Shown: positions 27,294 to 64,000 of the stretch, one piece after another | Position numbering within the stretch: the stretch's first letter is position 1 | Layout of the letters: each line of letters begins with the position of its first letter | Source: a virus | DNA: 64,000 nucleotides | Reading direction: 5' to 3' (one strand) | IMG/VR virus record: IMGVR_UViG_3300017971_000027 | Coordinates: 1 to 64,000 of that record | Notes under the pieces: generated by a model | Told to the model about the DNA's origin: nothing | The model's database searches: none | Seen by the model: only the letters and a program-made list of their open reading frames with translations | Position numbers and translations under genes: made by a program

Positions 27294-27382
27294 ATTATAC
27301 CACAAATGAGGAACCTTTGTCAAGAGGTTTTGAGAAAGTTTGTGAAAACCTCTTGACAAGCAGTGTGGAGCTATGGTATAAT
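27294..27382. promoter_or_regulatory. back-to-back sigma70 promoters inside a 15-bp inverted repeat
   Basis: Minus TTGACA(27323-18)-N18-TATAAT(27299-94); plus TTGACA(27353-58)-N18-TATAAT(27377-82); IR TTGTCAAGAGGTTTT/AAAACCTCTTGACAA. Confidence 0.88.
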
Positions 27383-30976: not shown

Positions 30977-31372
30977 TCAACCTAGTTGCATTGCCCCGGA
31001 TCCCGGCTCTCGATGCCCCGGAGAGAGCCCAAATAATGCCCCAAATAATGCCCCAAATCAGACCGGGAGAGAGCCGGGATCCGGGAGCCCCGGAGAGAGA
31101 GCCCCGGAGAGAGAGCCCAAATTTGCCCGGAGAGAGCCGATCCGATCCGGGGTATACCTTGCCCCAAATCCCGGATCGGATCGGATTATACCCCTAATTT
31201 GCCCCATTACGCCCGGGATGGAATACCCCGGAGAGAGCCGGGATCCGGATCGGGATTTGCCCCGGCTCCGGGGCTCCCTCATAATGCCCCAAATTTGCCC
31301 GGAGAGCCCCAAATAATAAGAGCCCCGATCCATGTTACCGGATCGGGGCTCGATGCCCGGGATGGGGCTCTA

Positions 31373-32161
31373 TTAGACGGATCGTGCTATACTCTCCCGG
31401 GCTCTATTGGATCGGCTCCCATGGACCGGAATTACCATACCCCGTAGCGCGCCTATAGTCCGGAGCCGGGGGGATTCCAAATCCGGGATCGATCCCATGA
31501 ACGGTTTCACAACTCCCCTGCACAACTGACAATCTGCACACTCTCTCCCGGAGAGAGCCGGACACACAGTCTCCCATGGGAGCAAATCTGATTTTATCAA
31601 TTCCAAATCAGACCGGGGATCCGTTCGGAAGGTATTCCATCCCATGGAATGAGCCCGGGCGCATTCGTCCAAATTGTCAACACTAGCACATACCAGATAC
31701 CGGAGCCGGGGATCGGCGCTCTCCCATGAATGAGTGTACCCCGTCCACCCGATCTTTGGTCTTGCTCTATACCGGAGCAAATCCATCAAGACATTGATCG
31801 GGAGAGCGGCGGGATCCCCATATGAGCCGATCCGGATCGGTTTGTTATTTGGAATGAGCCGGGGATCCGTGAAATCATATGAGCCCCGTTTATAAGCTCT
31901 ATAAACGGATCCGGGCGCTTGGTGGGGGAGCACATAACATCCGGATCCGGATCGGAATTTACACTCCCCACACACACTCCGATCCGCTCCGGTCTTGACG
32001 GCTTGGCATGGACTCATGTCAGACCGTATGATCCAACTCTGCACCATATCCCCGGTCTTGATATTTTGGGATTTGCTCTCTAATCCGGAGAGCACACACA
32101 GGATCTTGTTTCCATCTATTTGGGATTTGCCATTGTAAACTATCGTGCTATTCGCATTCAT
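31373..32161 (-). CDS. GP88/DUF7227-like Cys-rich phage protein
   Basis: N.KTG.M.Q, CG.C.....CY, RIGSYGDPAA, WTGYTH.W, ASVD, CP......C..C.LC. Confidence 0.7.
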   Translation of the reverse strand: MNANSTIVYNGKSQIDGNKILCVLSGLESKSQNIKTGDMVQSWIIRSDMSPCQAVKTGADRSVCGECKFRSGSGCYVLPHQAPGSVYRAYKRGSYDFTDPRLIPNNKPIRIGSYGDPAALPINVLMDLLRYRARPKIGWTGYTHSWESADPRLRYLVCASVDNLDECARAHSMGWNTFRTDPRSDLELIKSDLLPWETVCPALSGRECADCQLCRGVVKPFMGSIPDLESPRLRTIGALRGMVIPVHGSRSNRARESIARSV

Positions 32162-32367
32162 GATTTTATCCCCTTTACGTAATCCATCCCGTATACGGCG
32201 GGACGATGCCAATCCACCCGACACAACTCATCGATCGCCAAATCCAACTCATCAAGGGACCGTACCGCTCGAAACATCCGGACGATCCGATCCCGGTCTG
32301 ATACGCTCCGGACCCGCTCCCGGGCAAATCCGATCCATCTCATAGATTCCGCAAATACTGATATCAT
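32158..32367 (-). CDS. hypothetical protein
   Basis: Coupled to its neighbours by ATGA overlaps. Confidence 0.5.
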   Translation of the reverse strand: MISVFAESMRWIGFARERVRSVSDRDRIVRMFRAVRSLDELDLAIDELCRVDWHRPAVYGMDYVKGIKS

Positions 32368-32546
32368 GATACGGCCCCCTCATCAACTCCGATCCCGTAG
32401 TTGTCCAACAACTCATCGATCCACCCCATGAGCGCGACATATCCCGGATCGACGCTATCCCGGAGCCCTATAGACGGATCGTCCGGAGCGGATCCCTCAT
32501 CTATCAACTCATCCCATCTCTCTATCAACTCATAGACTGTCAACAT
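32364..32546 (-). CDS. small acidic hypothetical protein
   Basis: Start MLTVYEL at 32546 with RBS GGGAG, downstream of the promoter at 32639. Confidence 0.6.
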   Translation of the reverse strand: MLTVYELIERWDELIDEGSAPDDPSIGLRDSVDPGYVALMGWIDELLDNYGIGVDEGAVS

Positions 32547-32610
32547 GGTCTCAACTCCCGGGGCTCTGCCCCTTGACGGCTCCCACCATGGGAGCCCCAT
32601 TAACACCGTG

Positions 32611-32639
32611 ATCTTATCATATCCCCGGGCCCCTGTCAA
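32611..32639 (-). promoter_or_regulatory. sigma70 promoter
   Basis: TTGACA-N17-TAAGAT with extended TG. Confidence 0.7.
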
Positions 32640-32994
32640 GAACAAAAATAAGTAATAAATCCGGAGCCCGATCCGGAGCCCGGGATCCCGGGGCAAATCA
32701 GGGGCAAATCCGGGGCAAATTATGAGCCGGGGATCGGGGCTCCGGGAGAGCCGATCTGGGAGCCGGGATCCGGGAGCGGGATCGGGCTCATAATAAGACC
32801 ACGCGCCTACACGTACAATTCCCATGCCATGTAGCAAAAAGTAAACATGTCTCATTAAGCGTTTAAATTCTAAACGAGACAGTCCGATTACAATTCTGTA
32901 ATTTTAAACATCCGATCTGGCATGAATCTTGCGTGGGGGATATCACGCACTGAACATATGTTCAGTACCCCCTCTATATATGGGCAGATATCGC

Positions 32995-33044
<50 letters not shown>

Positions 33045-33939
33045 GCAAAATGAAACACTGGGTGAAATCACGCAGGCAAGAATCGTGCCAGACTGGCCAG
33101 AAATCGCGCAACGTCCGATAATGTACGTTATGTAACGTTATCTGGACACAAAGTGGGGTATATCACCCGATTTTGGGGCATTTCACCCAGCAAAATCAAC
33201 GCAAACGTTTGCGTGGCCTGAATTACAATTTCGAAAGTAAACGTTTGCGCCCCAACAGCCCGGCTTTGTGATGCAAAGTGCGAATAATGAGGTCGGCTCG
33301 GGTGTGTGTACATCCAGCGTACATGTGTGTGTGCGTGTGTGTCCGCGTGTGTGTCAGAAATCCTACCAAAATGTATGAATTACGAAATTGTAATCGGGAA
33401 AACTGGCCGAAAATTTGCAAAAACCCCTTATTTTCGCACTTTTTGTCAACAGAAAAATTTGCACGGAGCGCATATTCCCACCTTCCAGACCGTCTGTACA
33501 TTCGATGTACATACCCTGTACACTGAGTGTACGTCATTATTGTATACGACTGTATACATTTTGTATACACTTTGCCGTAACCTGTTGATTAGCAACAGTT
33601 AGCAGATATGTGGCAGATATAGGAACCATTGCTTTTTGAAACGACTGCTCAGATGTTTGTCTGAATCGTTCCGATCTTTTCCCTGTTCCGGTAGCTTGGA
33701 TTGTGGTTACCATTTCCCGTCAGGCTTTCGAGAATCGTTTCTAACGGACGGGATTACTCTGGACGACTCTCGGGTAGGGTACCACCTTGGTCGGGCCTTA
33801 GAAGCGAAATTTGGAGGCCTCTGGTTGGTTCTGGTTGACCTTGGACTGTTGGTGATGCTGATGCTGGCTCGAAAGGCGGTAAAATTGGCGTGTAACGGGC
33901 GAAGTGATCGTGGGGCAGGTCTTGGTATACCTTGGATAT

Positions 33940-33977
33940 AAAAAAGGCCCCCTGAACGTTGTACTGTCCAGAGGGCC
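33940..33977 (-). terminator. rho-independent terminator
   Basis: GGCCCTCTGGAC...GTTCAGGGGGCC followed by a T tract. Confidence 0.75.
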
Positions 33978-33991
33978 GAGCCTGATGCCGG

Positions 33992-38987: not shown

Positions 38988-39028
38988 GGTCTGTCTCCGT
39001 GTTGCCTCTTCTCAACCTGTCTGTACTT

Positions 39029-39058
39029 AGTATACCACAAATCCACCCAGTTTGTCAA
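39029..39058 (-). promoter_or_regulatory. sigma70 promoter
   Basis: TTGACA-N18-TATACT within TGTGGTATACT. Confidence 0.85.
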
Positions 39059-39143
39059 GAGGTTTGTTAATACGTTTGACGGGCATCTCAAGGCCGACTC
39101 AAGAAGCCCCGAAATGCCCGTCGGGTTGTGGAGGTATATCATG

Positions 39144-40669
39144 TTAGCTTGGCGGAATATCGAGCTGATGCACTCCGTTCTGGTAACCGTCCGTAATGAC
39201 CAGTTTGCCGGTCGAGCAGTTGTACACGAGCAGACCAGCGTCACCGTCTGGGCCGTTGCCGTATGGCAGGACACCAAGTCCACGGTTACCATCGATCTGT
39301 TCATGACAGTGACCGATCAGTCGGGCCATGCTGTAGTCCTCATCGCCTTCGCGCATCCGAGGAATTGCACCTCTGACCAACTCTATTGACCGACTCCCTG
39401 CGCCGTGCAGGTACATCTCGCACGGGGCATGTCCATACTTGCTCTCGACTCTCACTACCGCTCTGTCGCCCATTGCATGTCTCCTTATGGTTTGCCGTAC
39501 ATCCTATATGCACGGAAGTTTCCAGTAACCTTTGCCAGCACCGCCCAGCACATCCATACATTTTATAGCTGCATCTCTGGCGTACTCGTTCCGACCGTCA
39601 ATGTTTGTGTTGGTCGCCATAGTGTCGAGCCAACATAGGCACAGTTGCGTGAACGCCTGTTGCAATGTCCGGTGCTTACCCTTCATTGCGAATGCGAAAT
39701 CATCCATGTCAGGTCTGCTCGACAGATTCACGAAGTCTGCCATAACATTCGCAACATCTTTCGGGTCGCTCAGGTCGACCGATACGTTCTCATACCATTT
39801 CTTGTCAGCCATTGTCAATTCTCCTTTCTTCAACAGACAGTTCATCTATGAACCGTTTCTGCCAGTGCGCAGATGCTTTGTTTGCCAGAAGCATAAACTC
39901 GTCATGTGGCAACATACCCTCATCCGATAGCGTCTCTAGGATGAAACGTACCTTTGCCCTGTATGCGTTCTTGGCTGCACGTTCGACCTGTTCTCCTGTC
40001 AGCGTTTCTATCATCACACACCTTCCTTCCTACCGGCGAACAACGCCAGTTCTTCTGCTCCGACCTCGAACCGTTTGCCGGTCAGAGTGTCACGAAATAC
40101 GACTGCCTTGACCTGCCGACCGAGCTTCACGTACCCGATACGCTCGAGGTACATGTACTCGGAAAGGATTCTGTCAACCGCTCGGGCTGCTTCAAAGATG
40201 TTCAACATAGTCTGTCTCCTTATGCTTCTTTGTAACCTGTTGCCAATGGCCCACGACGACCGCACATGATGCAGTAGCCGTCTGGGTCAGTATAAGCGTC
40301 ACAGTTCTTGTGCAGGTACCCTCGGATGGCCCTGTCGAAACTGAACTGGACGTATTCCCATCTGTCGGTACCGGAACCTGTGACCACGTCCGGTTCCCCG
40401 TCGACCGGTTCCAACATGCATTCAGGAACGGCCAGAAGATCCATACCGTACGAGTCGTGTCGGACAGCGATTGACCGTTCGACTGGGTACACCGGCAGAC
40501 CGTTCTCTTCGGCCATGTGGAAGTGTACCATCCACTTCTCGAAATGTATGCCACCTTTGTACGGGATGGCACCCAACCGTTCAACCAGAACTGCTTTGCC
40601 TTCGTGCTGAAGTTGCATCGGAATGTCTTTATATATGCTGACCGTCTGTCCTGTTTCGAGCACTGCCAT
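39144..40669 (-). other. operon of hypothetical early proteins (39144..39473, 39504.., 39805..40017, 40014.., 40220..40669)
   Basis: Coupled ORFs with RBSs downstream of the promoter at 40748. Confidence 0.6.
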
Positions 40670-40718
40670 TGTCTTGGCCTCCTTGTTGTTTCCGTTATTC
40701 CCAACCTGTCTGGCACCT

Positions 40719-40748
40719 AATATATCACAAACAGGTACCACTTGTCAA
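40719..40748 (-). promoter_or_regulatory. sigma70 promoter
   Basis: TTGACA-N18-TATATT with extended TG. Confidence 0.75.
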
Positions 40749-41012
40749 GGACTTTTTTCGCGCTTGTTTCAAGCAGGTTTTACAGTATGAACCAAACACT
40801 GCCTGATGCACGTCAAGTTCCAATGGATTACACGGTACGCTCACCCAGACATGAGCGTTATACCTCTGGACGTACCCGCCACGCTCATACTTCTTATTCT
40901 TCTCACAACCACACAGTGTAACTGTCTTGCCTGCTTCGTTCCGATAACATATGTGAGTCTTCGTGGACTCTTCGCCAATCCAGCATATGCGATATTCTGT
41001 AGCCATTGTCAT
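40725..41012 (-). CDS. Cys/His-rich hypothetical protein
   Basis: KTH...TLCG...CKTC; RBS AAGGAG; has its own promoter. Confidence 0.6.
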   Translation of the reverse strand: MTMATEYRICWIGEESTKTHICYRNEAGKTVTLCGCEKNKKYERGGYVQRYNAHVWVSVPCNPLELDVHQAVFGSYCKTCLKQARKKSLTSGTCL

Positions 41013-41044
41013 TCTCCTTCTGTTGATTGCCTCACTGTGATCCT

Positions 41045-41073
41045 AGTATACCACATCCAGACGGAAAAGTCAA
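41045..41073 (-). promoter_or_regulatory. sigma70 promoter
   Basis: TTGACT-N17-TATACT within TGTGGTATACT. Confidence 0.8.
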
Positions 41074-41159
41074 GAACTTTTTTCACTTTCATTCTACTGG
41101 CCATTTTCAACCGTGGTTGAAAGCGTTGAAACCTAGGTTGAAACTTGCTTGTCCAGCAC

Positions 41160-41257
41160 CTATCTTATATACTATCTTATATACTATCTAATATACTATA
41201 GTTATGTGCCAGCTAGGTGGGCCACCTGTCACACTGTCACACTGTCACACTGTCACA
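41160..41257. repeat. tandem repeats: 3x CTATCTWATATA and 4x CTGTCACA
   Basis: 41160-41195 and 41226-41257, in the noncoding switch between divergent early arms. Confidence 0.85.
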
Positions 41258-41696
41258 TAACTCTGAACCACCCTTAAGACTATGGCGTTGCACGACTTAC
41301 AGACGAAATTCAAAATGGTTAATTATTTACATGCAGATTTTTCATTATTCGCATTAGCTGTCAGACTTGCCTTTATCCATTGGACTTACGACTTCTGTGC
41401 CATATAGCCTAGGTCGTGGTAGGCCACCTTGTGAATAGTGAGACCAAGCTGGACTTTGTCAACTCCATACCTTAGCACCTATAGCATTATCAGCATTATT
41501 AGTCAACCGACTTCGAAAATTTAAATAAATCCTAGCAAACTCGAACATTTCTGTTGGAACGTGCTGGGCTGGCTGGGTTTCTGACTGGCCAAAAAGCGAA
41601 GTAATAATAATGCTAACGGCCCGTTTGGCCCGTTTCTGACACCTTGGCACGGGTCTTGCTTATACATATGCATCTGATTTGAAAGGAGGTGATTCG

Positions 41697-41927
41697 ATGA
41701 AGCTGAAAGCAAAACTGGACAGGGAAGTTGGCAACCTCGGAGACGTTCAATATTACGTCCTGAAAGTCGAGACTGACAAAGGCGTAGAGTTCACCTTCCG
41801 TCTGTCTTGCAACGATTACAGGCCGATTGCCGAACTGGAAAACGGTTCTCTTGCACGTCTGTCACACTATGAGGCCCGTGACGCTATGGATTTGATGGCA
41901 CGTCTCATCAATAAAGAGATAGCGTGA
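41697..41927 (+). CDS. hypothetical protein
   Basis: RBS AAGGAGGTG, ATG at 41697; followed by a hairpin at ~41949-41994. Confidence 0.7.
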   Translation: MKLKAKLDREVGNLGDVQYYVLKVETDKGVEFTFRLSCNDYRPIAELENGSLARLSHYEARDAMDLMARLINKEIA

Positions 41928-42018
41928 TCGGCATTTCTCGGCAAAACTGGGGTAGAATTTGAGGTCGGTCTACACGCCGATCTCATTTTACCCCTATAAA
42001 CATTGGCTAAAAAAGTTC

Positions 42019-42047
42019 TTGACTTTTGTCTCGAATTAGTGTATAGT
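42019..42047 (+). promoter_or_regulatory. sigma70 promoter for the noncoding locus
   Basis: TTGACT-N17-TATAGT; no RBS-led ORF follows for ~880 nt. Confidence 0.75.
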
Positions 42048-42053
42048 ATGTAT

Positions 42054-42630
42054 GCAAGGTTGGGACAGTAAGTACAGCCAAGCAGAACGGCAGTCTGGAG
42101 ATTGAGGCTCCGATAAATGCGAACGGCAGGACTGCCAAGCTCATTGACAGTTGAATAAATACGAAACATGCGACAAGATTCAGATGCCATACCACTGAGT
42201 GGATTCGAGCTGAGATAGGCAATGTTTCGTTGCGCCGGTGCTGGTGTAGCCCCGTGGAGAACCATTTGGGAGATAAGCCGACATGAACGTGTCGCAAAGG
42301 CACCAGCACCGGCAGGTCGGCGCACACATAGTAAGTCGCCAGAGTAAAGCGAAAGGAGCGGGTTGATCGCCGTGTACTGGGACTGGGTGCTGGCGCAGGC
42401 GCGATGCGAAAGTCCGCGAGTAGGTCGCATATGTGTGTGTCGACCATATAAAGTTTTCGAGTGGCCGCACGAGCTGGCAGTTTCACCCCAATCTGGAAGG
42501 TCTGCGAAACAGGCCATATAGGGGAGTATCGGGAATTGATCAGTCCGACTGAGACGCTGACGAAACTAATCGGGAATTAACTCGTAGATGGCGTATGGCG
42601 CGAGGGGTTGAGTCCTCGGGCTGTCAGTAC
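42054..42630 (+). ncRNA. unknown multi-domain structured RNA
   Basis: Stems GGCAGTC/GACTGCC, GCCGGTGCTGGTG/CACCAGCACCGGC (13 bp), GGTCGGCGCACACATA/TATGTGTGTGTCGACC (16 bp with G-U), GGTCTG-CGAAA-CAGGCC. Confidence 0.65.
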
Positions 42631-42632
42631 TC

Positions 42633-42807
42633 GTCGAGCCACTTTTAAGCACTGGATGTCGACGTTGGTTCGAATCCAACCGTAGCGGCCGCTGGCATAA
42701 CATTAAGCCCTGTCCTACTGAAAAGGTAGTAAGGCTGTCAGCATATGAGATCACTCGGCGTAGCTCAGAGGTCAGAGCGGTTCAGTGCTTATAGAATTTG
42801 GCTGGAC
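42633..42807 (+). ncRNA. YrlA-like Y RNA (circularly permuted tRNA mimic)
   Basis: T arm GTTGG-TTCGAAT-CCAAC (42664-80) precedes D arm TA-GCTC-AGAGGTCA-GAGC (42761-78); closed by TAAGCACTGGAT/GTTCAGTGCTTA and GTCGAGCCA/TGGCTGGAC. Confidence 0.7.
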
Positions 42808-42888
42808 GTTACCGTCTGTTGCCGAGACCCCGCTGGTAACGGCGGGAGCGGTGAAATTCCGTGGTAACGTCCGAACGAAATTTTCTTC

Positions 42889-42918
42889 TTGACAAACGAT
42901 ATTGACTTGTGGTATACT
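42889..42918 (+). promoter_or_regulatory. sigma70 promoter
   Basis: TTGACA-N18-TATACT within TGTGGTATACT. Confidence 0.85.
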
Positions 42919-42944
42919 AGGTTCAGAAGATAAGGAGATTGAAC

Positions 42945-44169
42945 ATGGCACTTCAAATTGAACAAGAAAGAGTCAACCGGATAGCTCGGCGGGTACGGAA
43001 GTCTAATCTGGACTTTGTCGAGGGCCAGCTCGAAGCGATACAGCTTCTGGCTGAAAGCATCGTGCGAAATGACCCTGACCGGCAGGGTCTCGTTGCCCAG
43101 CACATTGTCAATCGGGTTGGTCGTGCGCTGAGGAATTTGGACGCAGCACGTAACGCATAAGGAGACAGATTATGTTTATGACCAAGGCTGAAGCATGGAA
43201 ATATGAAAACACGGTCACCTGCGGGTTCTGTAAAGATTGGATCGACCCGAACGAATGCGACGAGAATTCCGAGTTGCTCGATTGGATCGGCGACGAGAAG
43301 GATGCCGACTACGAACTGTGTGATCGGACTGACGAATTGCATGTGTGCTACGATTGCGCAAAAGAGTTGAAGGTCGAGATGGAAGCACGGAAGTCCAACT
43401 GGGACGAGGTGGCAGAAGGAATGGCGTGGCCCTACAAGTAAGGGTCGCGCTGTTTCTATGTGTGTGTGTGGAGGTGAACATGAACAGCGTTGTTGCTAAA
43501 TGTCCATATGATGGATGTCAGAGAAAGATGGAACTGTTCTTCGATATATTCGAAGGCCAGTACGCAACGTGCGAGCATTGTGGCAAACTTTTCTGGCTCG
43601 AGTTGGAAGTCGCCATAATCAGCACATCAACACATAAGCTGAAAGGATATGAATAGCATGTACCATAAAGAACTTATCGAACAGTTGGAAGATTACTCGT
43701 TCAGGTCGGGTTACCTGAAGTCGAGTCTGGTACTGTTGGTCAAGGCTATTGAGTCGCATCTCGATTGCAACGACACAGAACCTGATAGCTGGCTCAGACG
43801 GCAGCTCGAAAGAGAACGCAAGACCCTTGAGCTTATCGCCGAGGCTGACAAAAGGAGAATGGCATGTATTGGAAGATAATGTTACCTGCAATCGTGATCG
43901 CGGTGTTCGTCTGCTGTATGGCATGTGTTGTGCAGTACGAGCGGAATGACATAGAACGTATCGAGAAGGCCGACAGGCTGCATATGATAGAGCCACCTGT
44001 ATTCGAACCGGCCAACACGACAGAAGTGGCCCATATGGCGAATTCGGGCGACGAGCCGGTGTACATGGTAGTACGGTATGAGGTGGCTGAGTCGGAGACG
44101 GGCTGGGAGACGGCTGCGGTCTTCGAAGTCGGCACGGGCCAGAAACTGAAGATAGAGGTTAGTGAATAG
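42945..44169 (+). other. operon of small hypothetical proteins (42945..43160, 43172..43441, 43480..43656, 43649..43879, 43864..44169 with N-terminal TM)
   Basis: AGGAG/GGAGG RBSs, coupled ORFs. Confidence 0.65.
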
Positions 44170-44184
44170 GAGAGGACAAGTGAT

Positions 44185-44406
44185 ATGCTACTCAACCAAT
44201 CACACGTCAAACAGTATGCGAAGTCGCTCAGGCCGAACCTTCGAGTCAGCTCGTCGTACATGGCTGCACTCAACGCCAAAGTTGCAGAGTTGATCGAAGC
44301 GCATGTCGGTGTTAACGGGTCGAGGAAAACTATGACCGATGCCGTGATAGATTATTGTTCGCAGGCGAAGGCATTGTCGAACGTGGACAGAAAGAAAGTC
44401 AGATAA
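44185..44406 (+). CDS. putative histone-fold protein
   Basis: LLN.S.VK.YAK...RVS..Y..AL..KV..LI......GSRKTM resembles prokaryotic histone alpha1-L1-alpha2-L2(RKT). Confidence 0.6.
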   Translation: MLLNQSHVKQYAKSLRPNLRVSSSYMAALNAKVAELIEAHVGVNGSRKTMTDAVIDYCSQAKALSNVDRKKVR

Positions 44407-44411
44407 ACCTC

Positions 44412-44441
44412 TTGACAAACACCACCTGTTTGTGGTATAAT
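44412..44441 (+). promoter_or_regulatory. sigma70 promoter
   Basis: TTGACA-N18-TATAAT within TGTGGTATAAT. Confidence 0.88.
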
Positions 44442-44518
44442 AAATCAGAAGGTTAGAAAAGGTTGACATAGGGTCGACCTAAAATGCTCGGCAGAGTCCG
44501 AGGGTAAAGGAGCCAATC

Positions 44519-45448
44519 ATGGCCAGAAAAATCAGCGCAGCAACGAGAGCAAAGAGAGCTAAAGAATCGAAAGAAAGAGTCCGAGGCGTGATGGACACTA
44601 TCATCTACGCTTTCGAGAACGGGACAGTAGCACCGGCATTAGCCCAGCGATGGCTCGTTCCTGCGGACGTACCGCAACGCAAATGGTCAATCCGAAACCA
44701 GATGCTCTGTGCGCTGGCTGGTGCGACTGATGCCCGTGGCTACAAGCTATGGCGTGATATGGGCCGTGAAGTGGTTAAAGGTAAATCTATCCGACTGCTT
44801 CGTCCGAACATGGTTCCTGTCGAGGAAGTCAATCCCAATACCGGCGAACTCGAAAAGAATTATGTCATGCGTGGGTTCAGATGCTTCGCAGCGTGGGACG
44901 TTTCCAATACGACCGGTCCTGAAGAAACTCTTCCAGCATACCTTGCCGAACATAAGAAATTCGTCGAGTCCCTACCTCTGGTCGAAGTGGCACAGAAGTG
45001 GGGCATCAACGTCATTGTCGGTGGCGGGAACGATAACAGCTCGACTATGGGATGGTTCCAGCCACGTACGCAGACTATCAAGCTGAACGTGGAGAATCTT
45101 TCGACGTGGACGCACGAGCTGATACATGCTGCCGACTACCGGCTTGGAAATCTAATCCACGACGACGAAACATGGCTGACCGAAGCAGTAGCTGAACTGG
45201 GCGGTGCGGTTCTTCTGAGCCTGATAGGCTACAAAGATGACGCCGACCTCGGTGGGGCTATGGAGTATATCAAAAAGTACGCTACGAGCGCAGATAAAAG
45301 GTTAGGGAACGCATGCGACCTCGCCATGAAACGTGTCGAAGCTGCTATCGACCTTATTATGGACGCTGCGGGATTGAGTGTTGACCTGTCCGGTGAATTG
45401 GAGGCTGAAGCTGCAGATGGCTCTGAGGACGAGCTGGTGGCTGCGTAA
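44519..45448 (+). CDS. ArdC-like antirestriction protein (ssDNA-binding domain + zincin-like domain)
   Basis: WS..NQ.L, RGY..W...GR.V.KG...I.L..P, F....WDVS.T.G, HELIH, E.VAE. Confidence 0.85.
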   Translation: MARKISAATRAKRAKESKERVRGVMDTIIYAFENGTVAPALAQRWLVPADVPQRKWSIRNQMLCALAGATDARGYKLWRDMGREVVKGKSIRLLRPNMVPVEEVNPNTGELEKNYVMRGFRCFAAWDVSNTTGPEETLPAYLAEHKKFVESLPLVEVAQKWGINVIVGGGNDNSSTMGWFQPRTQTIKLNVENLSTWTHELIHAADYRLGNLIHDDETWLTEAVAELGGAVLLSLIGYKDDADLGGAMEYIKKYATSADKRLGNACDLAMKRVEAAIDLIMDAAGLSVDLSGELEAEAADGSEDELVAA

Positions 45449-45460
45449 GCCACTTTTATG

Positions 45461-45501
45461 GGCGGGGTAAGGTATTCTTCTCTCCGGTACCTTACCTCGC
45501 C
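45461..45501 (+). terminator. long hairpin after the ardC-like gene
   Basis: GGCGGGGTAAGGTA/TACCTTACCTCGCC. Confidence 0.55.
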
Positions 45502-46215
45502 TTAGACGGGAAATTTGGAAGTCGAATAGCGAAGGAGTACCGTGTATGTCAAAGTTCTTCTGTGAGATTGACACCGAGACAATGCCGACTTCGCCGAAAG
45601 GTCAAGCTAAAGAGATTGCCAACACGCTCAGACGAACGTCTAGGCGCATCGAAGCAATGGCTAAGGCCGTCGAAGAAAACGGCAACTGGGAAAGCAAAGA
45701 GATACCACTGTACGATAACCTAGGGAATGTAGTTGGACGAGGCGCGTTCGACTTCGCAAACATGATTCGGATATCATGGGAGAAAAGGATGAGAATATGA
45801 TGCAAATTTTATTTACGTGCGAAATATGCAACCACACATGGGATGCCGGTGATAGGTACCTTATGTACGAAGACCTGAAGGACGACGATCGTCAGTTGTG
45901 TCCAGAGTGTGGCGGTCATGGCGACAGGAGCACGGGCGATTCTGGCGAAATGCTGAAGTATGAGTGTGACGTGTGTGGTTGTCGGTGGACTGCGCAGGAA
46001 TATCAAGCCGACTGTGCTATATGTCCGACATGCGAAGAGGAAGGAAATGTGGTAGATGCTGATGTAGCTGGAGAGGATAAACACTGGGAACGTGAAGGAT
46101 GGCAAGATGGATGTTGAGATTGTATTCTGGTTAAAGTCCATATCATGGTGGCTGTGTGTCTTAGCCATGTGCGACTTACATGAAACTCTGGCAAAGATAC
46201 TGAAAGGAATGAAGA

Positions 46216-46902
46216 ATGGCGAAAAAACAGAAAGAAGCAAGACATATACACGGGTGCCGGTTGACTGCTCGGGTACAGAATGTAAAGGCTCGGATATTCC
46301 CCGATACAGAATGCGCTGATGGACAAGCGATTATCGCCGAGCTGCAAGATATACTGGACCTAGTGGCCAAAGGCGAAAAAGAGAGACCGGCTGGATTGGC
46401 CGACAGCAACACGATCAACTATCACGGTATCAGTGTTCGTGGCGGTCTGGCGGTCGTGAGTATACTCGACGGGAAACAACCACACTATATTCGGCGAATA
46501 CCAAGAAACATCATCGATGCGAATGTAACATACCGATGCGAGTGGTGTCGTGAAAGTTGGGTGGCTTCATTTGCAGACGGCAGCGATACGTGTCCTGCGT
46601 GTGGTCGCCTGAATGCCGGTCAGGTCAAAGAAGTCGCAGACATAGGGTCAGACATAGGGACGCCGGTAGAAAAGCCGGTAGAAGCGAAAACTGATATCCC
46701 TGAACCTGTATCTGAACCGGTACCAGCCACGGAAGTCACACTGGAAGTCACACCGGAAGCTAACACGGAAGTCGAGATGACCGTGTCGAAACCGGAAGAT
46801 AAACCGAAACCGAAACGTAGAAAGCGTGGGAAAAAGCTCAAGCGTGTCCCGAGGAAAAAGGCTAACGTAGACAAACTAAAGAAGGATAAGAAAGATGCGT
46901 AA
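46216..46902 (+). CDS. hypothetical protein, zinc ribbon + P/E/T linker + basic tail
   Basis: CEWC...CPACG, then KPKPKRRKRGKKLKR. Confidence 0.6.
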   Translation: MAKKQKEARHIHGCRLTARVQNVKARIFPDTECADGQAIIAELQDILDLVAKGEKERPAGLADSNTINYHGISVRGGLAVVSILDGKQPHYIRRIPRNIIDANVTYRCEWCRESWVASFADGSDTCPACGRLNAGQVKEVADIGSDIGTPVEKPVEAKTDIPEPVSEPVPATEVTLEVTPEANTEVEMTVSKPEDKPKPKRRKRGKKLKRVPRKKANVDKLKKDKKDA

Positions 46903-47404
46903 ATACAAAGTAACTGACTGGCTGTTCGCTATTGCGTTCATTGGCACTATATTAGCTGCGTGTTGTGGCGGGTGCCTTGAACATGTCCATGCTCAGGAGA
47001 CGGTTTTGAAAACGAACGACTGGTTCGACATCACGATCACGCTTCCGAGCGAACCAGATGTCGCTGGCGTATATCTCATGTACCGACTCGAGAGTGCAGC
47101 CGACGACGACCCGTGGACGCTGGCTGGTAAAGTAGATGCTGGCCCTAACGAGTTCGTGACTGTCCGCGTGTCTGATGCAGTGTCTGGAGTGTTCCGATGT
47201 TCATCGATTATATATGATAACGCCGGTTCCGGTAACCTGTCAGACCGAGGGCTAAGTTTGAAGCTGGTCGAGGTCGACAAGGTACCGCCGTCTGGTGCTG
47301 TGCCTGATATTAGTGTGCCGTTAAAGGGCGACGTGAATGGTGACGGTCTGGTTAATTCGTCTGATATACAGGCTGTCGTTAATGCTGTGCTGGGAATTGC
47401 GTAA
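46895..47404 (+). CDS. secreted protein with Fn3-like domain and C-terminal dockerin-type repeat
   Basis: Signal-like N-terminus (VHA-Q), DVAGV, D.AG..N.S, GDVNGDGLVNSSDIQAVVNAVLG. Confidence 0.75.
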   Translation: MRKYKVTDWLFAIAFIGTILAACCGGCLEHVHAQETVLKTNDWFDITITLPSEPDVAGVYLMYRLESAADDDPWTLAGKVDAGPNEFVTVRVSDAVSGVFRCSSIIYDNAGSGNLSDRGLSLKLVEVDKVPPSGAVPDISVPLKGDVNGDGLVNSSDIQAVVNAVLGIA

Positions 47405-63423: not shown

Positions 63424-64000
63424 CTATAGTTCGACCGCTTCGATCTTCCTGACCATCTCAGCACGTTTACCTTCGGTCATGTTAGACATGAACTCGAAGA
63501 TCTTTTCCGAGAAGCCAGCGATGCAGTAAGCTTTCCGTTCAGGGAACATCAGCTGACCATAACCCTGCAAGTCGAAACTATAGATTTCAGGGTCCGCATC
63601 GTATTTCTTGCAGTACTTGGCAAACGAGCTACGCGGGTTGCCACGCTCGTTGCCTATCCAGCCCTGCATGTCAGACAGGATAATCACCCTGTCGTACTTC
63701 TTGTTCGCAACTTCGAAAATTGCGTGGAAGTTTGTGCCACCAGCTTTGAATTGCATATTTTCAGCCAAGGTCAACACGTTTGCACTCGGGTCCAGATTAC
63801 GGTATTGCGCGTAACTCTGGAACGTCATGAAATCAGCGTTGTTCGACTTGAATAGCACGGCTGCGAACATCGCACCAATCTCTGCCGGTGTAGGTGCTGG
63901 CTTGCCGTTAGGCTGCGTTCCACCACCCCACTGCATTGAACCGGACACGTCCAGCACGACAAGTGTGTCACCGTCGAATACCGGCACGTTCTCAAGTGCA
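63424..64000 (-). CDS. TROVE-domain Ro60/Rsr protein, C-terminal vWA part (5' end beyond window)
   Basis: ALENVP.F.G.TLVVLDVSGSM (MIDAS), GGTNF, DRVIILSDMQ.W, FDL.GYG, AGFSEKIF. Confidence 0.9.
   Translation of the reverse strand, partial: ALENVPVFDGDTLVVLDVSGSMQWGGGTQPNGKPAPTPAEIGAMFAAVLFKSNNADFMTFQSYAQYRNLDPSANVLTLAENMQFKAGGTNFHAIFEVANKKYDRVIILSDMQGWIGNERGNPRSSFAKYCKKYDADPEIYSFDLQGYGQLMFPERKAYCIAGFSEKIFEFMSNMTEGKRAEMVRKIEAVEL

What the first reader, a model, noticed from the sequence alone, without database searches (positions are those of the whole stretch)
42019..42885. ~830-nt promoter-driven, multi-domain noncoding RNA locus
Seen: a TTGACT-17-TATAGT promoter is followed by no RBS-led ORF until the next promoter at 42889. 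The interval is tiled by long stems with G-U pairs that favour the plus strand (42234-46/42301-13; 42315-30/42430-45), nested hairpins, GAAA loops, a possible GGACT/AGTCC pseudoknot (~42380/42411), and a terminal GGACGTTACC/GGTAACGTCC hairpin overlapping the 3' strand of the Y-like domain. Known: large phage RNAs such as GOLLD and ROOL are of this size, and GOLLD can embed tRNAs. Inference: either one new large ornate RNA or a polycistronic precursor of several small RNAs.
Basis: partly seen in the sequence, partly recalled or inferred. Interest (0 to 1): 0.78.

Follow-up and report, generated by a model that had tools for sequence, protein, structure and literature searches.

The report
Phage early non-coding RNA array with tRNA mimic
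An 84-kb marine phage carries, behind one of its standard strong promoters, about 830 bases with no sign of protein coding that fold into a chain of separate stem-closed RNA modules; one module is a rearranged tRNA look-alike of the kind that partners the RNA-surveillance protein Ro60, which this phage also encodes.

Summary
The interval is real and most likely non-coding. Its promoter belongs to a family of 17 near-identical sigma-70 promoters in this 83.8-kb phage. Codon usage in every frame looks non-coding, and no Rfam family or tRNA/tmRNA gene is called.

It is not uniformly ornate. Five or six discrete modules fold far better than shuffled controls: A1 z -3.0, B -5.8, C -3.7, F -5.5. The stretch 42446-42631 does not (z +0.3). 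The whole interval scores z -2.5 on both strands.

One module can be named. 42632-42808 is a circularly permuted tRNA (T arm, acceptor-like arm, D arm) on a long closing stem, which is the YrlA-type Y-RNA layout. ARAGORN calls it a tRNA once it is re-permuted in silico.

The phage encodes a Ro60/TROVE protein 21 kb away, with five "handle"-tagged Y-like RNAs and 26 tRNAs. This module lacks that handle and fails the Rfam YrlA model.

No relative of the locus was found in any collection, so covariation and expression stay untested. Best reading: a polycistronic early ncRNA array, not one GOLLD/ROOL-like RNA. The scan has reported Ro60 arrays in other phages, but not this distal locus.

The parts
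41949..41994 (+). Strong hairpin after the upstream 76-82-aa gene (41679-41927). It has no U tract. It marks the 5' border of the locus.
   Evidence: -28.4 kcal/mol, z -5.65
42019..42047 (+). Promoter: -35 TTGACT, 17-nt spacer, -10 TATAGT, preceded by aaaaaagttc. Transcription start inferred near 42054.
   Evidence: (member of a 17-copy promoter family; nearest twins at 41073(-) and 36616(-))
42058..42136 (+). Module A1: a small hairpin (42058-42079) followed by a three-way junction closed by GGCAGUC/GGACUGCC (42089-42136).
   Evidence: z -2.97; 1 of 200 shuffles folds as well
42161..42230 (+). Module A2, closed by the 9-bp helix ACGAAACAU/AUGUUUCGU.
   Evidence: I6. z is only -1.04, so support is weak.
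42234..42313 (+). Module B: a 13-14-bp perfect closing stem around a three-way junction.
   Evidence: z -5.78; I2; one of only 14 perfect local inverted repeats of 11 nt or more in the 84-kb genome
42315..42445 (+). Module C: a 16-bp closing stem with two G-U pairs around a multi-branch interior with two C-GAAA-G loops. It starts 1 nt after module B.
   Evidence: -56.1 kcal/mol on + against -42.8 on -; z -3.65; (I1)
42446..42631 (+). Stretch D: not significantly structured. It holds the hairpin GGUCUG-CGAAA-CAGGCC (42499-42515) and a 10-nt direct repeat AUCGGGAAUU (42528-37 and 42569-78).
   Evidence: z +0.32; (D4)
42632..42808 (+). Module E: a circularly permuted tRNA mimic on a long closing stem (YrlA-type layout). 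A possible lower stem reaches 42604-42831.
   Evidence: fold; ARAGORN calls a 76-nt tRNA after in-silico re-permutation; the only hit of the unit model in the 64-kb window, at exactly 42631-42809
42646..42657 (+). E: 5' strand of the 12-bp closing helix. It pairs with 42780-42791 and takes the place of the anticodon stem.
   Evidence: (I8)
42664..42680 (+). E: T arm GUUGG-UUCGAAU-CCAAC, carrying every invariant T-loop base. C48 lies just before it.
   Evidence: (12.5 bits); 15 nt identical to the T arm of unit U4
42681..42760 (+). E: acceptor-like arm. CGUAGCG (42681-87) pairs with CUCGGCG (42754-60) in 5 of 7 positions. It is extended by a 65-nt insert (42689-42753) that holds the 7-bp helix GCUGGCA/UGUCAGC.
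   Evidence: The cloverleaf costs +7.7 kcal/mol over the unconstrained fold.
42761..42779 (+). E: U8-A9, then D arm GCUC-AGAGGUCA-GAGC (A14, G18, G19 and A21 present), then N26.
42804..42872 (+). Module F: a cloverleaf-shaped four-way junction closed by the 10-bp helix GGACGUUACC/GGUAACGUCC. It includes a CCCGCUG-GUAA-CGGCGGG hairpin. Its 5' strand overlaps E's 3' strand (42804-08), so the two folds compete.
   Evidence: z -5.45, -38.9 kcal/mol on + against -32.3 on -; (I4)
42889..42918 (+). Next promoter (TTGACA, 18 nt, TATACT), which drives the first RBS-led gene at 42945-43160. No intrinsic terminator was found between the two promoters.

Best explanation
This is an early non-coding RNA operon.

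Host RNA polymerase starts at the family-type promoter at 42019. It transcribes about 830 nt with no usable reading frame and no terminator, and probably runs on into the next promoter and gene.

The transcript folds co-transcriptionally into a chain of independently closed modules: A1, A2, B, C, E and F. I infer that it is cut into several small stable RNAs. Candidate enzymes are RNase III, or another double-strand nuclease, in the 13-16-bp closing stems, and RNase P/Z-type enzymes at the tRNA-like module.

Module E is a circularly permuted tRNA body (T arm, then acceptor-like arm, then D arm) mounted on a long irregular stem that replaces the anticodon arm. That is the architecture of bacterial YrlA Y RNAs.

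Its most likely role is as a further partner or regulator RNA of the phage's own Ro60 ring protein. Failing that, it could be a tRNA decoy for enzymes that recognise the tRNA elbow.

Shown here: the promoter class, the lack of coding signal, the stability of the modules, the permuted tRNA geometry, and the Ro60 gene in the same genome. Inferred only: transcription, processing, Ro60 binding, and any role for modules A-C and F.
For: - Promoter: 10 of 12 consensus positions, and a member of a 17-copy family. Family members also drive the Ro60 Y-RNA array and the tRNA clusters.
- No Rfam family, tRNA or tmRNA is called.
- Every frame in the interval has non-coding codon usage, while the flanking small genes score +0.11 to +0.27.
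- Module stability against 200 dinucleotide shuffles: A1 -2.97, B -5.78, C -3.65, F -5.45. None of the 200 shuffles fold as well as B, C or F.
- The 13-bp perfect stem of B is one of only 14 such repeats in 84 kb.
- Plus-strand folds are 4-13 kcal/mol better than minus-strand folds of the same modules.
- E folded alone forms the T arm, the D arm and a 12-bp closure.
- Re-permuted E is called a tRNA by ARAGORN at default settings, as is the control unit U3.
- The phage encodes a TROVE protein (PF05731, 2.7e-17), five Y-like units and 26 tRNAs.
- The model of handle-tagged tRNA-mimic units gives a single hit in the 64-kb window, spanning exactly E.
- Published background: YrlA layout (PMC4201824); phage Ro60 binds phage Y-like RNAs (PMC12135203).
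Against: - There is no homologue anywhere, so no covariation supports any helix of this locus.
- Whole-interval stability is modest and equal on both strands (z -2.5 and -2.4).
- Stretch D (186 nt) and module A2 are no better, or hardly better, than shuffles.
- I chose the module borders after seeing the stems, which inflates their z-scores.
- E fails the Rfam YrlA model (no hit at E <= 10).
- E carries no recognisable Ro60 handle. The 16 bits it scores against the unit model come from the T and D arms alone.
- E's acceptor-like stem has 2 mismatches in 7, and the cloverleaf is 7.7 kcal/mol worse than an alternative extended T hairpin.
- E lies 21 kb from Ro60 on the opposite strand. Published YrlA genes lie within 4 kb on the same strand (PMC4201824).
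Confidence: 0.55

Rival explanations
1. The interval is one large ornate RNA, GOLLD/ROOL-like in scale. All ~830 nt would act as a single folded particle, with the tRNA mimic as an embedded domain.
For: - Modules A2, B and C are packed 1-3 nt apart, as coaxially stacked domains of one RNA could be.
- The motifs CGAAA (6 copies) and AGUAAG (3 copies against 0.07 expected) recur across the interval.
- The full-length minimum-energy fold contains long-range helices.
- A 10-nt 5'/3' complementarity exists between 42072-81 and 42798-807 (I5).
Against: - There is no Rfam match to GOLLD, ROOL or any large RNA.
- The centroid fold keeps only local modules.
- About 11 inverted repeats of 10 nt with one mismatch are expected by chance in 872 nt, so I5 carries no weight.
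- The 186-nt stretch D is unstructured.
- This phage's other ncRNAs (Y-like units and tRNAs) are all small units made in arrays.
Confidence: 0.12
2. The interval is a leader or a relic. It would be an untranslated leader or regulatory spacer of the rightward early operon, or a DNA-level control or origin region. Its stems would serve as nuclease barriers, attenuators or protein sites, and module E would be a decaying copy of a Y-like unit or tRNA with no role of its own.
For: - There is no terminator before the next promoter.
- E has lost the handle consensus and two acceptor pairs.
- The locus sits beside a divergent-promoter region with tandem repeats at 41160-41257.
- Alternative, mutually exclusive pairings exist around 42798-42813 and between B and C (I3, I4 and I5), as attenuators have.
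- The locus has no relatives, so nothing shows purifying selection.
Against: - A second full-strength promoter directly follows, so the downstream genes do not need this leader.
- E keeps every invariant T-loop and D-loop base and a perfect 12-bp closure, which a decaying relic would be expected to lose.
- B, C and F are multi-branch junctions rather than simple barrier hairpins.
Confidence: 0.2
3. The interval hides one or more small protein genes. The leading candidate is the 52-codon frame 42363-42521, which has an AAGGAG box 5 nt before a TTG start.
For: - The AAGGAG motif matches the ribosome-binding sites of the neighbouring genes.
- The phage's confirmed neighbours are also tiny orphan proteins with no database relatives.
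Against: - Codon usage is -0.03 per codon, against +0.11 to +0.27 for real neighbours.
- The start is TTG, and the frame lies wholly inside the 16-bp-closed module C.
- No other frame has a ribosome-binding site.
- The 216-codon minus-strand frame (41867-42517) scores -0.05, has no Pfam hit, and runs against the promoters.
Confidence: 0.06

Closest known systems
YrlA-type bacterial and mycobacteriophage Y RNAs (Rfam RF02553; Chen et al. 2014, PMC4201824)
   Same: - Module E has the same permuted order: closing stem, V region, T arm, stem-loop in the acceptor position, UA, D arm, closing stem.
- The T-loop and D-loop invariants and the G15:C48 pair are present.
- The genome encodes a Ro60/TROVE protein.
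   Different: - It does not reach the Rfam model at all.
- The acceptor-position arm carries a 65-nt insert and two mismatches.
- There is no strict GNCGAAN0-1G motif near the 5' end.
- It lies 21 kb from Ro60 on the other strand.
- It is embedded at the 3' end of a ~830-nt non-coding transcript.
Handle-tagged Y-like RNA arrays next to phage Ro60 genes (this genome's units U1-U5 at 64937-65565; Thermus phage phiLo Yrl1/Yrl2, PMC12135203)
   Same: - Same module order as the tRNA-mimic units, such as U3 here.
- The T arm is identical over 15-17 nt to those of U4 and of a unit in an unrelated viral contig.
- It is driven by the same promoter family.
- Partial resemblance of motifs: CAGUAC to YAGUGA, and CACUUU to UACUUC.
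   Different: - The conserved handle (P1, bulged Y, AGUGA paired with UUUCU, P2, UACUUC) is not recognisable.
- The covariance model of the family gives E only 16 bits (E 0.15), all from the T and D arms.
- It is not adjacent to Ro60.
GOLLD and ROOL large phage-associated RNAs
   Same: Comparable length, a phage setting, and (for GOLLD) association with tRNA sequences.
   Different: No match to either Rfam model even at E <= 10. The architecture looks like a chain of separate modules rather than one fold.
Circularly permuted tRNA genes and two-piece (permuted) tmRNA
   Same: The T arm and 3' acceptor strand lie upstream of the 5' acceptor strand and D arm, joined by an intervening segment.
   Different: - ARAGORN finds no tmRNA or tRNA in place, and no permuted-tmRNA Rfam model matches.
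- Pair 3:70 is C-G, not G-U, and there is no CCA (the sequence reads GCCG).
- There is no anticodon loop: a 12-bp or longer helix stands in its place.
- The frame downstream does not end like a degradation tag.

Membership tests
YrlA (RF02553) | Score at or above the Rfam gathering threshold (69 bits) | tested here: not met
   No hit for 41900-43000 even at E <= 10. For comparison, the Ro60-proximal unit U3 reaches only 17.1 bits.
YrlA (RF02553) | Permuted tRNA-like domain: T arm, then a stem-loop in the acceptor position, then a D arm, all closed by a helix | tested here: met
   Folds. ARAGORN calls a 76-nt tRNA after in-silico re-permutation.
YrlA (RF02553) | tRNA tertiary-contact bases present (U8, A14, G18, G19, A21, G53, T54, U55, C56, A58, C61, and the 15:48 pair) | tested here: met
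   Read directly from the sequence at 42664-42680 and 42761-42778, with C at 42663.
YrlA (RF02553) | GNCGAAN0-1G motif near the 5' end (the proposed Ro60 contact) | tested here: not met
   Only GUCGAG lies in E's 5' strand (42633-38). The single GACGAA (42559-64) is followed by AC.
YrlA (RF02553) | Encoded within about 4 kb of the Ro60 gene on the same strand | tested here: not met
   Ro60 lies at 63427-64911 on the minus strand, 21 kb away.
YrlA (RF02553) | Bound by Ro60; modified by TruB and DusA | not testable with these tools
   Needs pull-down and modification mapping.
   R1 finds U1-U4 at 35-94 bits. E scores 16.1 bits (E 0.15). With filters off, only the T arm (12.5 bits) and D arm (3.5 bits) match.
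GOLLD / ROOL | Match to the Rfam covariance model | tested here: not met
tmRNA (standard or permuted) | ARAGORN or Rfam detection; G3:U70; CCA end; tag reading frame | tested here: not met
   Pair 3:70 is C-G, and GCCG stands where NCCA would be (drawing).
Structured non-coding RNA in general | Covariation that supports the helices across homologues | not testable with these tools
   No homologue found in INPHARED, IMG/VR, JGI metagenomes or 5.8 billion proteins.

The most novel reading that the evidence does not exclude
The locus could be a new kind of phage early ncRNA operon. It would deliver, at the very start of infection, a set of stem-closed junction RNAs together with a handle-less permuted tRNA, acting jointly with the phage Ro60 particle. 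They might serve as decoys or guides that redirect host RNA decay or tRNA-targeting defences. The three-way competition for 42798-42813 could be a switch between a 'Y-RNA' fold and a 'cloverleaf F' fold.
Probability: 0.12. Interest if true: 0.75.

Novelty: new variant of a known kind. Interest (0 to 1): 0.5.

Why it matters
Ro60 and its Y RNAs are an RNA-surveillance system shared by animals, bacteria and phages, and what it does for a phage is unknown.

Here a phage that already carries Ro60, five handle-tagged Y-like RNAs and 26 tRNAs devotes a further strong early promoter to about 830 nt of structured RNA. That RNA ends in a second, differently built tRNA mimic.

If module E binds Ro60 without the usual handle, it would widen the rules for Ro60 recognition. 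If it does not bind, it is a free-standing tRNA decoy made early in infection, which bears on the current question of how phages deal with tRNA-directed defences.

The other modules are orphan RNAs with no known family. They are worth a transcript map, but they cannot yet be interpreted.

Tried and rejected
**Family and gene searches**
- Rfam at gathering thresholds on the whole window, and at E <= 10 on 41900-43000. The only result was a chance SAM-II hit (E 4.2) in the upstream hairpin.
- ARAGORN on the window: 0 genes.

**Searches for relatives**
- blastn in 'distant' mode against 50,697 phage records: no match.
- Pattern-based searches for kin in IMG/VR with four neighbouring proteins: none found.
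- The 5.8-billion-protein search with both flanking small proteins returned only the phage itself.
- The T-arm...D-arm pattern gave one hit in IMG/VR and eleven in JGI metagenomes. All were ordinary tandem tRNA genes.
- BLAST of the locus against 17 Ro60-array phage records matched only the T arm. L093 and L112 were not held and so were not searched.
- tblastn of the nearest large gene against cultured phages gave at most 29% identity, so synteny could not be used.

**Sequencing runs**
- No RNA holder was listed.
- The two DNA holders carry identical contigs with no variant in 39000-47000.

**Ideas tested and dropped**
- tmRNA or a functional permuted tRNA gene.
- Group I intron or another ribozyme.
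- The GGACU/AGUCC pseudoknot, which is a nested helix.
- A Ro60 handle at any of the three AGUAAG sites: the matching partner motifs are absent.
- A9-nt 'anti-T-loop' at 42200-08, and the 5'/3' pairing 42072-81 with 42798-807. Both are at chance level for 872 nt.
- The minus-strand 216-codon frame: non-coding codon usage, no Pfam hit.

**Weak result**
- The sliding 150-nt z-score scan showed signal only where the long stems lie.

Full report
**Setting.** The window is bases 1-64000 of an 83,796-bp viral record with direct terminal repeats. Two DNA runs labelled sediment and seawater metagenome hold the stretch. The genome is an orphan:
- The locus has no blastn match among 50,697 phage records.
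- Four neighbouring proteins have no kin in IMG/VR.
- The two flanking small proteins have no relative among 5.8 billion proteins other than themselves.
- The nearest large gene is at most 29% identical to anything in cultured phages.

The locus lies where leftward genes (up to 41012) give way to a rightward block of small early-type genes. That block includes an anti-restriction-like protein and a DNA methyltransferase.

**The observation.** The promoter TTGACT-17-TATAGT at 42019-42047 is real by consensus. A genome-wide scan finds 17 promoters of one family, with consensus ...cctcTTGACAaa...tgTGGTATAATgg. P42019 is one of them, with close twins at 41073(-) and 36616(-). Other members drive the Ro60 Y-RNA array (65636) and the tRNA clusters (66287, 69841, 71577, 74080). 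So this phage routinely puts this promoter in front of RNA genes. No intrinsic terminator is predicted anywhere in 40500-44500. The next family promoter follows at 42889, then the first gene with a proper AGGAG-ATG start at 42945.

CGAAA is enriched: 6 copies against 1.3 expected, and only 0.8% of genome windows reach that count. Two details do not hold. The 'pseudoknot' is a nested helix. And one frame does have a Shine-Dalgarno-like box: AAGGAG, 5 nt, then TTG, at 42363-42521.

**Coding or not.** I built a codon-usage log-odds model from 39 long ORFs of this genome. It scores the flanking small genes at +0.25, +0.11 and +0.27 per codon. The frames inside the interval score between -0.07 and +0.11. 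The TTG frame scores -0.03 and the 216-codon minus-strand frame -0.05. The latter has no Pfam hit. Nothing here looks translated, but with no relatives, conservation cannot settle it.

**How structured is it?**
- The whole 841 nt folds at -315 kcal/mol (z -2.5). The reverse complement also gives z -2.4.
- A sliding 150-nt scan over 39000-43450 shows strong signal only where the long stems lie and at the hairpin 41949-41994.
- Folded with their own borders, discrete modules stand out: A1 z -2.97, B -5.78, C -3.65, F -5.45. A2 reaches only -1.04.
- The 186-nt stretch 42446-42631 gives z +0.32.
- B's 13-bp perfect stem is one of only 14 perfect local inverted repeats of 11 nt or more in the entire genome.

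I chose the borders after seeing the stems, so these z-scores are optimistic. The centroid of the full fold retains only local modules. The picture is a chain of separately closed junction RNAs, 1-3 nt apart, with one poorly structured linker. It is not an evenly ornate 830-nt fold.

**The module that can be named.** In 42632-42808 a perfect T arm lies upstream of a perfect D arm:
- T arm: GUUGG-UUCGAAU-CCAAC, 42664-80.
- D arm: UA-GCUC-AGAGGUCA-GAGC, 42761-78.
- Between them, CGUAGCG (42681-87) faces CUCGGCG (42754-60) and pairs in 5 of 7 positions. This acceptor-like stem is extended by a 65-nt insert.
- UAAGCACUGGAU (42646-57) pairs over 12 bp with GUUCAGUGCUUA (42780-91), where a tRNA would have its anticodon stem.

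I rejoined the two halves in standard order with a neutral 7-nt loop. ARAGORN then calls a 76-nt tRNA at default settings, as it does for the control unit U3. All invariant elbow bases and a G15:C48 pair are present.

This is the topology of YrlA Y RNAs: T, then a stem-loop in the acceptor position, then D, closed by the RNA's own ends (PMC4201824).

Two caveats apply. The cloverleaf is 7.7 kcal/mol worse than an alternative in which the T hairpin is extended. And the lower closing stem competes with local hairpins on both sides, including module F, which shares 42804-08.

**The Ro60 connection.**
- The frame 63427-64911(-) carries a TROVE domain (PF05731, 2.7e-17) and a weak Ro60 vWA match.
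- Upstream of it lie five units with the layout P1-YAGUGA-P2-UACUUC-cargo-P2'-UUUCU-P1'.
- One of these units (U3) is a clean permuted tRNA. It aligns end to end with Rfam YrlA, but at only 17 bits.
- 26 tRNA genes follow.

A pattern scan for this handle in IMG/VR returned many contigs. Seventeen of them encode a Ro60 homologue (27-53% identical) beside arrays of such units.

Seven tRNA-mimic units from six viral contigs align well, and 25 of 36 consensus pairs show compensatory changes. The covariance model built from them (R1) recovers U1-U4 at 35-94 bits. In the 64-kb window it hits one place only, 42631-42809, which is exactly module E, but at 16.1 bits and E 0.15. With filters off, the match breaks into the T arm (12.5 bits) and the D arm (3.5 bits).

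So E shares the cargo and the module order of the family. It has faint echoes of the handle (CAGUAC for YAGUGA, CACUUU for UACUUC) but not the handle itself. It also fails the YrlA model, lacks a strict GNCGAAN0-1G motif, and lies 21 kb from Ro60 on the other strand. I therefore describe it as YrlA-like in architecture, not as a member of either family.

**What it most likely does.** The best-supported model is an early polycistronic ncRNA array, made from a strong host-type promoter and processed into small RNAs. Module E would serve as a Ro60 partner or a tRNA-elbow decoy. The phage's other RNA genes are arranged in the same way (promoter, then RNA array, with no predicted terminator in the one stretch scanned). 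In the published systems, Ro60 and Y RNA recruit PNPase (PMC4201824, PMC12135203). Transcription, processing and binding are all inferred.

Rival readings are set out separately: a single large RNA, a leader or relic with attenuator-like alternative pairings, and a hidden small gene.

Modules A1, A2, B, C and F have no recognisable relatives or shared motif, and their role is unexplained.

**What could not be done.**
- No RNA run was listed among the holders.
- The two DNA holders are identical over 8 kb.
- No homologue of the locus exists in the collections I could scan.

The shuffle test gave a mixed answer: strong for four modules, null for the linker, and modest for the whole.

**Verdict.** This is a real, probably transcribed, non-coding multi-module locus. 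Its 3' module is a new variant of the Y-RNA tRNA mimic, in a phage with its own Ro60 system. It is interesting as a second, handle-less and Ro60-distal member of that theme, and as a set of orphan structured RNAs. It is unsupported by comparative or expression data.

Noticed in passing
window 63427-64000, continuing to genome 64911 (L002:428-1912, minus strand): Phage Ro60/TROVE gene of 495 aa (PF05731, 2.7e-17). The closest GenBank phage homologue is 47% identical, in a 635-kb uncultured phage.
   Followed up: yes
genome 64937-65565, minus strand (L002:1938-2566), just beyond the window: Five Y-like units share a handle (P1, bulged Y, AGUGA paired with UUUCU, P2, UACUUC) and sit behind the promoter at 65636. 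U3 carries a clean permuted tRNA and U4 carries a T arm. The same handle sits beside Ro60 homologues in at least 17 IMG/VR contigs, and 25 of 36 consensus pairs covary.
   Followed up: partly
genome 66011-74035, minus strand (L002:3012-11035): 26 tRNA genes covering most amino acids, interspersed with minus-strand ORFs and driven by the same promoter family.
   Followed up: partly
whole genome; in the window at 27323(-), 27353(+), 30155(-), 34463(-), 36616(-), 39058(-), 40748(-), 41073(-), 42019(+), 42889(+), 44412(+): A family of 17 near-identical sigma-70 promoters with an extended -10 box (cctcTTGACAaa...tgTGGTATAAT). This suggests heavy reliance on host RNA polymerase.
   Followed up: partly
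window 41160-41199 and 41226-41257: Tandem repeats in the AT-rich divergent-promoter region: a 12-nt unit x3.3 and an 8-nt unit CTGTCACA x4. Public contigs break at the second array, and one shows an insertion there. This may be a regulatory or origin region.
   Followed up: no
window 32860-33990: An ORF-poor stretch with three perfect inverted repeats of 11 nt or more (33058/33180, 33200/33239, 33222/33383). There is no meaningful Rfam hit. It may be another structured RNA or a control region.
   Followed up: partly
window 30995-32789: A dense cluster of GGATCC- and CCGATCC-type perfect inverted repeats (7 of the genome's 14), matching the 'restriction-site island' noted by the scan earlier.
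   Followed up: no
window 42363-42521: A 52-codon frame with AAGGAG 5 nt before a TTG start, inside module C. Its codon usage is non-coding-like.
   Followed up: partly
L135 (G011:130-3148), about 1670-1700: A unit in another phage's Ro60 array uses UAGUAA in place of UAGUGA in the handle. So YAGURA is the natural range of that motif.
   Followed up: no
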